DNA from: a virus
Taxonomy: Duplodnaviria; Caudoviricetes
Length of the DNA: 64,000 bases
Direction: 5' to 3' (one strand)
Virus record (IMG/VR): IMGVR_UViG_3300047160_036266
Span: 128,001-192,000 of that record
Made by a program: the position numbers and the translations under genes. Under the pieces are notes generated by a model. That model made no database searches. It saw only the letters and a program-made list of their open reading frames with translations, and was not told where the DNA came from. Every line of letters starts with the position of its first letter. Within the stretch, counting starts at the first letter, position 1. Positions 307-450 of the stretch are shown piece by piece.

Positions 307-450
307 GGCAGGAGAAAAAGACGCTGAGAGAGATTTTTCCCGCTCTACCACTGAGCTACCTCCCAATAATTTCAGAGTTGGGAGGGTCGGGATCGAACCG
401 ACGACCTGGCGCTTTTCATGCGAAGTAACCCTCAACTGCACCGTCCTGCC
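307..450 (-). ncRNA. Y-RNA(YrlA)-like copy B with circularly permuted tRNA-like module
   Basis: GGCAGG/CCTGCC outer stem, GGTGCAG, TTGAGGG/CTCTCAG stem (pairs fully only on the minus strand, via G.U), TTACTTC. Then T arm (GTCGG-TTCGATC-CCGAC), loop-closed acceptor stem CCTCCCA/TGGGAGG, D arm (GCTC-AGTGGTA-GAGC). Confidence 0.8.

What the first reader, a model, noticed from the sequence alone, without database searches (positions are those of the whole stretch)
307..450. Circularly permuted tRNA-Phe mimic with a GAA anticodon-like hairpin
Seen: order on the transcript is CGC-ATGAAAA-GCG (7-nt loop with central GAA), AGGTC variable region, canonical T arm, 7-bp acceptor-like stem closed by an 11-nt loop (no free CCA), then a canonical D arm. 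That is the 3' half of a tRNA followed by its 5' half. It sits among three real tRNA-Phe(GAA) genes. Inference: a non-aminoacylatable tRNA-Phe look-alike, a plausible decoy for a host anticodon nuclease or tRNA-sensing defence, or a substrate-recruiting module for Ro60-nuclease complexes.
Basis: partly seen in the sequence, partly recalled or inferred. Interest (0 to 1): 0.75.

Follow-up and report, generated by a model that had tools for sequence, protein, structure and literature searches.

The report
Phage Y RNA carrying permuted tRNA-Phe
The back-to-front tRNA-Phe look-alike is real. It is the head of a Y RNA, the small RNA that partners the Ro60 (Rsr) RNA-surveillance protein, placed between tRNA genes of a giant soil phage in whose 343 kb of held sequence I found no Ro60 gene.

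Summary
Observation confirmed. On the minus strand, 450-307 folds into a long bulged stem. The stem carries, in order, a short hairpin with the loop AUGAAAA, an AGGUC variable loop, a T arm, a closed 7-bp acceptor stem and a D arm. ARAGORN ignores it as it stands and calls it tRNA-Phe(GAA) once it is permuted.

It is one of three paralogues (A 226-126, B 450-307, C 768-699) packed 2-6 nt from tRNA-Phe and tRNA-Ser genes. A covariance model built from relatives scores B at 104 bits. The same family gave 190 matches beside Ro60 (TROVE-domain) genes in about 80 phage loci. It also occurs in Acidobacteriota chromosomes and, unannotated, in cultured Brevundimonas and Gordonia phages. It is therefore a YrlA-type Y RNA.

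It does not meet the strict YrlA tests. Rfam YrlA scores 31 bits against a threshold of 69. No TROVE, vWA or RtcB gene is present in the 343-kb record, which is estimated 69% complete.

About half of the full-length relatives carry an anticodon-like loop, usually exactly 10 nt before the T stem. After permutation ARAGORN of 36 as tRNAs, with 14 different anticodons. The decoy idea is untested, and no expression data cover B.

This scan has noted Ro60-like proteins with partner RNAs in phage tRNA arrays before on other DNA, and has noted this same stretch.

The parts
307..450 (-). Whole Y RNA, element B (144 nt): a YrlA-type Y RNA with a complete permuted tRNA-like head.
   Evidence: Model R1 scores it 104.2 bits, E about 1e-22. 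Rfam YrlA gives a partial hit at 339-409, 31 bits. Fold.
444..450 (-). Closing stem, 5' strand (GGCAGGA). It pairs with 313-307.
   Evidence: The stem covaries across the family: 9 of 9 pairs of helix 1 show changes on both sides.
307..313 (-). Closing stem, 3' strand (UCCUGCC).
436..442 (-). GGUGCAG motif, in the family's nearly invariant GGUG-N-AG position. G9 and G10 pair with C137 and U136 (314-315). It is the likely Ro60 contact, comparable to the published GNCGAAN0-1G and GGUCCGA motifs.
   Evidence: Invariant columns in A2. The motif occurs three times in the 343 kb, all in elements A, B and C. The Ro60-contact role is inferred from PMC4201824.
429..436 (-). Upper stem, 5' strand (GUUGAGGG). 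It pairs with 330-323 (CUCUCAGC).
   Evidence: Helix 2: 7 of 7 pairs have compensatory changes.
323..330 (-). Upper stem, 3' strand.
422..428 (-). UUACUUC junction motif. UACUUC is invariant in the 16-sequence seed alignment A2. UUAC matches the conserved YUAY of published YrlA.
   Evidence: PMC4201824.
410..422 (-). Anticodon-arm mimic, CGC-AUGAAAA-GCG. The loop is 419-413 and the GAA triplet is 417-415.
   Evidence: The loop is conserved and the stem covaries in the orthologue L204 (UUCCU-CUGAAAA-AGGAG). The family-wide loop signature is shown.
403..407 (-). Canonical 5-nt variable loop, AGGUC (positions 44-48).
   Evidence: Direct reading. The loop end lies exactly 10 nt before the T stem in 29 of 36 relatives.
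386..402 (-). T arm, GUCGG-UUCGAUC-CCGAC.
   Evidence: Rfam YrlA alignment. Together with AGGUC it is identical over 24 nt to the tRNA-Phe of the relative L204.
359..385 (-). Closed acceptor-like stem-loop: a 7-bp stem (385-379 with 365-359) and a 13-nt loop (378-366).
   Evidence: Helix 4: 7 of 7 pairs covary. The stem is entirely replaced but still paired in L204.
342..358 (-). U8 and A9 followed by the D arm, GCUC-AGUGGUA-GAGC.
331..341 (-). G26 and the A-rich linker (GGGAAAAAUCU) leading back to the upper stem.
   Evidence: Linkers of the GAAAA type recur across the family.
314..322 (-). 3' strand of the conserved internal loop (GUCUUUU, then U and C). It is the window's version of the family's CG..UGUUCC.
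126..226 (-). Paralogue A: the same stem, with a head that carries only a T-arm-like hairpin.
   Evidence: R1 36.3 bits. Fold z-score -3.5.
699..768 (-). Paralogue C: the same stem, with a minimal head (UUCU-CUUGAAA-AGAA).
   Evidence: R1 46.5 bits. Fold.
454..543 (-). tRNA-Ser(UGA), ending about 3 nt before the 5' end of B.
   Evidence: Weak Rfam hit. ARAGORN calls the orthologues in L210 and L204.
228..300 (-). tRNA-Phe(GAA), starting 6 nt after the 3' end of B.

Best explanation
Element B is a YrlA-type Y RNA of a giant soil phage. It is a 144-nt RNA whose two ends form a long bulged stem with conserved GGUG-N-AG, UACUUC and pyrimidine-rich motifs. This stem is the module that in relatives goes with a Ro60/Rsr (TROVE) protein. 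The head is a complete tRNA with its chain opened between positions 26 and 27 and its acceptor end closed by a loop.

Shown: the structure, its covariation, membership of the family, and the family's tight linkage to TROVE genes elsewhere.

Inferred: (1) It is transcribed with the tRNA array and released by the tRNA-processing enzymes. 3' trimming of tRNA-Ser(UGA) would make its 5' end, and RNase P cutting at tRNA-Phe would make its 3' end. (2) Its stem binds a Ro60 ring, either one encoded in the missing third of the phage genome or the host's. (3) The tRNA-shaped head presents the ring to, or competes for, proteins that recognise tRNA. This would be part of the phage's tRNA and RNA maintenance during infection.
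For: Structure.

Family membership: R1 gives 104.2 bits for B, 46.5 for C and 36.3 for A, and these are the only three matches in the 343 kb.

Covariation: 31 of 32 pairs show changes on both sides and 95% of cells are paired, against 62% in shuffles and 40-52% with slid partners.

Linkage to Ro60:
- All 5 phage contigs first found by the motif carry a TROVE gene 50-300 nt downstream on the same strand.
- R1 gave 190 matches in 82 loci: 79 loci fetched by TROVE homology plus the three contigs L004, L005 and L113 found by the motif. Nearly all lie on the TROVE-coding strand just upstream of the gene.
- The same holds in five Acidobacteriota genomes.
- The same holds in cultured Brevundimonas phage Bambus (four unannotated copies) and Gordonia phage Trax (69 bits).

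The window's own sequence subtype (GGAYGGUGCAG ... UCUCC) flanks a 634-aa TROVE gene (Pfam 2e-23) among tRNA-Arg genes in soil contigs L212 and L205.

Rfam YrlA is the best non-tRNA hit for the head.

Orthologous arrays at 81-88% identity keep the element with compensatory changes.

The spacers to the neighbouring tRNAs are 2-6 nt.

The phage has two CCA-adding-type nucleotidyltransferases, two Rnl2-type RNA ligases and an RNase P-like RNA.
Against: No TROVE, Ro60-type vWA or RtcB gene is detectable in the 343-kb record, using profile searches, three protein queries and tblastn. The published operational criterion, a position within 4 kb of rsr, is therefore not met.

The Rfam YrlA score is 31 bits against a threshold of 69, and covers the head only.

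No binding, processing or expression datum exists for this RNA.

The function of the tRNA-like head is unknown even for the studied YrlA RNAs (PMC4201824).
Confidence: 0.75

Rival explanations
1. A Ro60-independent tRNA decoy. The RNA acts on its own as a sponge or sensor for host enzymes that read the anticodon loop or the tRNA elbow. Candidates are anticodon nucleases, tRNA-sensing defence proteins, modification enzymes and PheRS. The stem would serve only to stabilise it.
For: No Ro60 gene is in the record.

The hairpin loop keeps UGAAAA in orthologues while its stem covaries.

Across the family, 29 of 51 V regions carry a [C/U/A]U-NNN-R-A loop, against 0.37 +/- 0.58 in shuffles. The middle three bases vary (15 triplets).

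The element sits in a phage tRNA array, a kind of locus often read as a counter to tRNA-targeting defences. That last point is established knowledge, not tested here.
Against: The stem motifs, not just the head, are the most conserved part. They are shared with paralogues A and C, which have no complete tRNA-like head.

The family is tied to TROVE genes in about 80 loci.

No nuclease or defence gene was linked to it here.
Confidence: 0.12
2. A two-piece chargeable tRNA-Phe. RNase P nicks the acceptor loop (between 366 and 365), the 3' tail is trimmed to A73 and CCA is added. This leaves a split tRNA-Phe-like molecule held together by its helices, which PheRS could charge.
For: It has a 7-bp acceptor stem, A73 and G34 A35 A36.

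M. smegmatis YrlA, about 147 nt with a 7-bp stem, is cut by RNase P and receives CCA in vivo, and both halves stay on Rsr (PMC4201824).

The phage encodes CCA-adding-type enzymes and an RNase P-like RNA.
Against: The anticodon stem has only 3 of 5 pairs in this phage.

Acceptor loops in the family are mostly 4-7 nt and have no conserved CCA.

The large stem attached at position 26/27 would probably clash with the ribosome. That is an inference.

Aminoacylation has not been shown for any Y RNA.
Confidence: 0.08
3. A decaying remnant of two tandem tRNA-Phe genes, or a false positive of the kind dimeric tRNAs give with YrlA models, with no function of its own.
For: Chen et al. warn that the T arm of one tRNA plus the D arm of the next can mimic YrlA.

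The element lies among tRNA-Phe genes. Its T arm plus variable loop equals that of a relative's tRNA-Phe over 24 nt.
Against: Upstream of the hairpin there is no D arm and no acceptor strand. Downstream of the D arm there is no anticodon arm and no T arm. Instead the flanks form the covarying family stem.

The element is kept in orthologues at 81% identity with a fully replaced yet still paired acceptor stem.

A tandem-tRNA origin, as in the Sim and Wolin model cited in 10.1101/312249, remains plausible as history, not as present state.
Confidence: 0.03

Closest known systems
YrlA (Y RNA-like A) of Salmonella Typhimurium; Rfam RF02553; crystal structure PDB 6CU1 (Chen et al. 2014, PMC4201824; Wang et al. 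2018, 10.1101/312249)
   Same: A terminal stem that goes with Ro60/Rsr. A head with a T arm, a closed acceptor-like stem and a D arm in that order. Conserved elbow nucleotides. A YUAY-type motif before the T-side hairpin.
   Different: In Salmonella the anticodon stem runs on into the Ro60 module and there is no anticodon loop. Here a separate hairpin with a 7-nt anticodon-like loop sits exactly where the anticodon arm belongs, and the stem joins at 26/27. The acceptor stem is 7 bp, not 6. The Rfam score is 31 bits against a threshold of 69. There is no rsr or rtcB next to it, and it lies between tRNA genes.
Actinobacterial and actinophage YrlA (M. smegmatis YrlA; mycobacteriophage ET08; checked here on Gordonia phage Trax)
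   Same: About 145 nt with a 7-bp acceptor stem and a 'V' hairpin before the T arm. The Trax RNA scores 69 bits with my model. It has the loop AUGCUAA 10 nt before the T stem. This is the same architecture.
   Different: Those RNAs lie directly upstream of the Ro60 gene. Their 5' motif is GNCGAA-like rather than GGUGCAG. The literature treats the hairpin as a variable arm, not as an anticodon-arm mimic.
Deinococcus radiodurans Yrn1 (the Rsr-Y RNA-PNPase machine)
   Same: A Y RNA with tRNA-like features, including a possible anticodon arm. It tethers Ro60 to an effector.
   Different: The arms are in a different order, the loop is 6 nt, and there is no clear D arm. Any homology to the present family was not seen here beyond a chance-level Rfam hit elsewhere in the window.
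Circularly permuted tRNA genes of the red alga Cyanidioschyzon merolae, and two-piece permuted tmRNA (from my own knowledge; a permuted tmRNA was also seen in phage Bambus)
   Same: The 3' half is encoded before the 5' half, with the acceptor ends joined in the precursor.
   Different: Those precursors are processed into normal functional molecules with free ends. Here the permutation point carries a large conserved protein-binding stem, and nothing indicates conversion into an ordinary tRNA.

Membership tests
YrlA (Rfam RF02553 / Chen et al. 2014) | A head with a T arm, a closed acceptor-like stem-loop and a D arm, in that order, with the tRNA elbow nucleotides. | tested here: met
   The Rfam alignment covers model positions 24-84. 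Direct reading. ARAGORN accepts the permuted form.
YrlA (Rfam RF02553 / Chen et al. 2014) | Reaches the curated Rfam gathering score (69 bits). | tested here: not met
   31 bits, head only. TROVE-linked relatives also stay below the threshold, at 32-55 bits.
YrlA (Rfam RF02553 / Chen et al. 2014) | Encoded within about 4 kb of a Ro60/TROVE gene on the same strand. | tested here: not met
   No TROVE or vWA gene anywhere in the 343-kb record. The record is estimated 69% complete, so absence from the phage is not proven.
YrlA (Rfam RF02553 / Chen et al. 2014) | A GNCGAAN0-1G motif near the 5' end, and a conserved YUAY. | tested here: inconclusive
   GGUGCAG matches GNCGAAG at 4 of its 6 fixed positions. 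UUAC fits YUAY. However, cmscan aligned the family's upper stem and AUACUU to that part of the model instead, so the register is unresolved.
YrlA (Rfam RF02553 / Chen et al. 2014) | Bound by Rsr, and modified by TruB and DusA. | not testable with these tools
   Needs immunoprecipitation and modification mapping.
TROVE-linked Y RNA family defined here (model R1) | A covarying closing stem, GGUG-N-AG, a 7-8-bp upper stem, UACUUC, and a pyrimidine-rich 3' strand ending in CC. | tested here: met
   104.2 bits over the full model. Alignment. The 3' strand reads UUUUUCUCC rather than UGUUCC. This subtype is shared with the L212 and L205 contigs.
TROVE-linked Y RNA family defined here (model R1) | An anticodon-like 7-nt loop hairpin 10 nt before the T stem. 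| tested here: met
   AUGAAAA, at distance 10, with 3 of 5 stem pairs. 36 of 67 relatives share the feature.
Functional tRNA | Contiguous cloverleaf with free 5' and 3' acceptor ends. | tested here: not met
   ARAGORN and the Rfam tRNA model find nothing at 307-450.

The most novel reading that the evidence does not exclude
Y RNA heads of this family are not merely elbow mimics. They are complete permuted tRNAs whose anticodon-like loops are kept because something reads them. Phage and bacterial Y RNA arrays would then display a panel of isoacceptor look-alikes (Phe here; Asn, Thr, Ser, Lys, Arg, Gln, His and others elsewhere) on a common Ro60 handle. This could be to catch, sense or repair the damage done by anticodon-loop-directed nucleases. 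In this phage the RNAs have moved into the tRNA operon and work with the host's Ro60, or with none.
Probability: 0.2. Interest if true: 0.75.

Novelty: new variant of a known kind. Interest (0 to 1): 0.48.

Why it matters
What the tRNA-like head of bacterial Y RNAs is for has been open since 2014. Two things here make the question more testable.

First, in a large, easily recognised family the head is a full four-armed tRNA. Its anticodon-like loop has conserved flanking positions (32, 33, 37, 38) and varied middle bases (34-35 freely; 36 is mostly U). This points to partners that read the anticodon loop, not only the elbow.

Second, the family is present but unannotated in cultured phages with tractable hosts: Brevundimonas phage Bambus and Gordonia phage Trax. 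Genetics and immunoprecipitation are feasible in those systems.

The present locus adds a case where Y RNAs are punctuated by tRNAs and separated from any Ro60 gene. Published searches excluded such cases by design, because they required a position within 4 kb of rsr and discarded hits in tandem tRNAs. Y RNAs may therefore be more widespread than catalogued.

Tried and rejected
- Expression. No listed holder of the stretch is on record as RNA. Laying four runs gave contigs only. The one library labelled metatranscriptomic covered 33-221 and 846-1000 but not element B. This gives no evidence either way on expression or ends.
- Ro60 partner in this genome. TROVE, Ro60-type vWA, generic vWA and RtcB profiles, three TROVE proteins and local tblastn all came back empty.
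- Relatives of the 634-aa TROVE type in the viral collection. Two scans picked poor peptide patterns and found nothing.
- Does the record break off at a tRNA island? A small ORF at the record's last kilobase resembles one inside the big tRNA arrays of L211 and L214. No tRNA or Y RNA lies at either end of the record. Inconclusive.
- Isoacceptor identity of the head. The permuted B is closest to a tRNA-Phe (73%), but other tRNAs reach 71%, and a CAU-loop relative also hits tRNA-Phe best. I therefore do not claim whole-body tRNA-Phe mimicry.
- Do loop triplets copy the neighbouring tRNA? Elements B and C suggested this, but it is not borne out in the other arrays. The UGAAAA of element C is probably the family's GAAAA junction motif.
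- Promoter and terminator scan. Nothing useful.
- RNAfold alone is weak for B (z = -1.96). The structural case rests on covariation.

Full report
WHAT IS THERE. Read on the minus strand, window 450-307 is a 144-nt unit. Its first 7 nt (GGCAGGA) pair with its last 7 (UCCUGCC). Next come a bulged C, GGUGCAG, an 8-bp upper stem (436-429 with 330-323) and the motif UUACUUC.

The head follows:
- a hairpin CGC-AUGAAAA-GCG (422-410)
- CC, then AGGUC
- a canonical T arm (402-386)
- a 7-bp stem CCUCCCA/UGGGAGG closed by a 13-nt loop
- UA, then a canonical D arm (356-342)
- G, then an A-rich linker back to the upper stem

Counting from the 5' end of the RNA, nucleotides 27 to 73 coincide one for one with tRNA positions 27-73. 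U33, G34 A35 A36, A37 A38, A44-C48, G53-C61 and A73 all fall in place. ARAGORN and the Rfam tRNA model see nothing here. When the two halves are swapped in silico, ARAGORN calls tRNA-Phe(gaa). Three tRNA-Phe(GAA) genes flank the element.

The flanking stem is the informative part. The 13-mer GGTGCAGWTRAGG occurs three times in the whole 343-kb record, all within 650 nt of each other. It marks three paralogues: A (226-126), B (450-307) and C (768-699). They share the closing stem, the GGUGCAG loop, the upper stem and UACUUC, but carry different heads. Each starts 2-3 nt after a tRNA. B and A each end 3-6 nt before the next tRNA, while C is followed by a 46-codon ORF. Rfam's only non-tRNA hit for B is YrlA, the tRNA-like Y RNA of bacteria. 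That hit covers the head only and scores 31 bits against a threshold of 69.

RELATIVES. Scanning the viral collection with the motif found phage contigs that carry 2-4 tandem copies of the same stem. In all five of them a TROVE (Ro60/Rsr) gene starts 50-300 nt downstream on the same strand, and in one an RtcB RNA ligase gene comes next.

I then fetched 80 phage loci by TROVE homology. I aligned 16 full-length RNAs including B and built a covariance model, R1.
- R1 scores B at 104.2 bits, in the middle of the range for full-length members (56-131 bits). C scores 46.5 and A 36.3. These are the only three matches in the record.
- In 82 loci (79 fetched by TROVE homology, plus L004, L005 and L113 from the motif scan) R1 finds 190 matches. 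Nearly all are on the TROVE strand, packed into the kilobase before the gene, with a few just after it.
- All five helices covary. 31 of 32 pairs show changes on both sides. 95% of cells are paired, against 62% in shuffles and 40-52% when partners are slid.

The family is not confined to uncultured phages. It stands before TROVE genes in five Acidobacteriota genomes and occurs in Planctomycetota assemblies. Four unannotated copies precede the 'RNA-binding protein' of the 348-kb Brevundimonas phage Bambus. One copy precedes the 'Ro-like RNA binding protein' of Gordonia phage Trax (69 bits), where it is overlaid by a small hypothetical CDS. Actinobacteria and their phages are where phage YrlA RNAs were first reported (PMC4201824). 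The present element is therefore homologous to the published class, even though Rfam's model stays below threshold for all the members I tested.

THE LOCUS AND ITS MISSING PARTNER. The window is part of an IMG/VR record of 343 kb, estimated 69% complete. By my own checks the record carries:
- tRNAs for Leu, Phe and Ser only
- an RNase P-like RNA
- two CCA-adding-type nucleotidyltransferases
- two Rnl2-type RNA ligases

I found no TROVE, no Ro60-type or generic vWA domain and no RtcB.

Soil metagenome contigs L204, L210 and L215 are orthologous arrays at 81-88% identity. They keep all three Y RNAs in the same slots. Other soil contigs hold very large tRNA arrays (up to 27 tRNAs in 7 kb) with Y RNAs of the same sequence subtype between the tRNAs. 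In two of them (L212, L205) a 634-aa TROVE protein (Pfam E = 2e-23) is encoded inside such an array.

The most economical reading is that the cognate Ro60 is of this type. It would lie in the unassembled third of the genome, or else the phage uses a host Ro60. Neither is shown.

THE ANTICODON-LIKE HAIRPIN. Three results bear on it.

(1) In the orthologue L204 the loop is CUGAAAA and the stem has changed from CGC/GCG to a 5-bp UUCCU/AGGAG. In the same RNA the acceptor-like stem has been entirely replaced. The loop is conserved while the stems covary.

(2) Across the family, 36 of 67 full-length members have a hairpin with a 7-nt loop of the form [C/U/A]-U-NNN-R-A. In 29 of the 36 the loop ends exactly 10 nt before the T stem, and in 6 it ends 9 nt before. 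That is the tRNA geometry of a 5-nt stem strand plus a 5-nt variable loop. After permutation at 26/27, ARAGORN of the 36 as tRNAs carrying 14 different anticodons, among them Asn, Thr, Ser, Lys, Arg, Gln, His, Phe, Val, Met, Pro and Leu. Composition-matched shuffles of the region give 0.37 +/- 0.58 such loops where 29 are observed, with a maximum of 3 in 500 shuffles. Relatedness inflates this contrast, but the 15 different middle triplets argue against simple inheritance.

(3) Because a normal AGGUC variable loop follows the hairpin, the hairpin cannot be the variable arm, which is the label 'V' it carries in the literature. It occupies positions 27-43.

So the feature is real and general. 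In this family the Ro60 stem joins the tRNA body at the 26/27 junction. This differs from Salmonella YrlA, in which the anticodon stem continues into the Ro60 module and 'YrlA lacks the anticodon loop' (10.1101/312249).

What the loop is for remains untested. Its frequent U36-A37-A38 or A36-A37-A38 make-up is that of loops read by A37-modifying enzymes. That comes from my own knowledge and is a lead only.

IS IT SPECIFICALLY A tRNA-Phe MIMIC? Only weakly. In its favour: GAA, A73, and a T arm plus variable loop identical over 24 nt to the tRNA-Phe of the relative L204. Against: overall identity of the permuted head to tRNA-Phe is 73%, against 71% for unrelated tRNAs. A relative with a CAU loop also hits tRNA-Phe best. 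The D arm is the family consensus.

The identity of the T arm fits the published idea that YrlA RNAs arose from dimeric tRNA transcripts (cited in 10.1101/312249). Here that would mean two adjacent tRNA-Phe genes. But B is not a pair of tRNAs today: the missing halves are replaced by the covarying stem. This answers the false-positive warning of Chen et al..

HOW IT MOST LIKELY WORKS. Shown: a conserved, covarying RNA of the Y RNA type, and family linkage to Ro60.

Inferred:
- It is co-transcribed with the tRNA array.
- It is released by tRNA 3' processing upstream and RNase P downstream.
- Its stem binds a Ro60 ring.
- Its tRNA-shaped head is recognised by tRNA-binding proteins.

By analogy with M. 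smegmatis YrlA, which also has a 7-bp stem, RNase P may in addition nick the acceptor loop and CCA may be added. 'No free CCA' is therefore not secure.

The decoy reading and the chargeable split-tRNA reading are kept as rivals. The relic reading is rejected.

COMPARISON AND NOVELTY. The kind is known: Ro60-associated, tRNA-like Y RNAs in bacteria and phages (PMC4201824). Jumbo phages with TROVE proteins and a 'tRNA-like partner' are also known (PMC7824862).

What differs here:
- The context: the element sits inside a tRNA operon and is punctuated by tRNAs, and no rsr gene is found in 343 kb.
- The stem motifs.
- The failure of the curated Rfam threshold.
- The recognition that the head is a complete permuted tRNA with an anticodon-loop mimic.

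I class it as a new variant of a known kind. Earlier notes of this scan had already flagged the three Y-like scaffolds on this stretch. They had also reported Ro60-like proteins with partner RNAs inside phage tRNA arrays on other DNA. Those notes agree with this report and were not used as evidence.

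Noticed in passing
window 846-1090 (minus strand): A 245-nt contig from a library labelled metatranscriptomic covers 846-1000 and runs on beyond 1000, at depth 43.8. Neighbouring parts are at depth 3. It coincides with an unclassified structured stretch just upstream of tRNA-Phe 843-772, and may be a discrete abundant RNA.
   Followed up: partly
window 228-300 and 49-123 (minus strand): Two of the three tRNA-Phe genes have a T loop UGCGA (G at position 55) and D loops without GG. 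The L204 orthologue of the first has canonical loops, while the second keeps the odd loop in L204. These are elbow-remodelled tRNAs next to a Y RNA with a canonical elbow.
   Followed up: partly
window 454-543 and 1744-1828 (minus strand): tRNA-Ser(UGA) and tRNA-Ser(CGA) are missed by ARAGORN in the window and appear only as weak tmRNA or tRNA-Sec hits in Rfam. Their orthologues in L204 and L210 are called normally.
   Followed up: partly
L002:4379-4627 (genome 102379-102627, minus strand): A 249-nt match to bacterial RNase P class A over the whole model, at 65.9 bits against a threshold of 100. This is a shortened phage RNase P RNA.
   Followed up: no
window 545-685 (minus strand): A 46-codon ORF with a hydrophobic tail lies inside the tRNA/Y RNA array, between element C and tRNA-Ser(UGA). 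It is conserved in L204 and has no Pfam match.
   Followed up: partly
window 2161-5767 (minus strand): The genes next to the array are translation-related: a protein with a bL12 C-terminal domain (2161-2838), a weak class II aminoacyl-tRNA synthetase core (3747-4583), a DUF5915 protein (4593-5291) and a CsrA-STAS fusion (5342-5767).
   Followed up: no
L004:3690-3818: One family member seems to carry a different permutation. The Ro60 stem appears to enter through the D loop (GCUCAGUU ... GGAUAGAGC), and the anticodon arm is reduced to CCGG-UUCG-CCGG (direct reading).
   Followed up: no
L349:1944-2091 (Gordonia phage Trax, MK967378) and L339:3313-3956 (Brevundimonas phage Bambus, ON529853): Y RNAs are unannotated in cultured phages. 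In Trax the RNA is overlaid by hypothetical CDS 93. In Bambus four copies fill the 'empty' kilobase before the TROVE gene, and a permuted tmRNA lies at L339:7789-8046.
   Followed up: partly
L249:1966-2931 (Planctomycetota MAG contig): Only the C-terminal 200 residues of the 634-aa TROVE type are found (53% identity), lying between two Y RNAs. This is either a truncated gene or a stand-alone C-terminal domain.
   Followed up: no
L211, L214, L216 (soil contigs): Very dense tRNA arrays (21-27 tRNAs in 7-10 kb) are interleaved with short Y RNAs. They include tRNA-like genes with odd anticodon loops that ARAGORN marks '???'.
   Followed up: no
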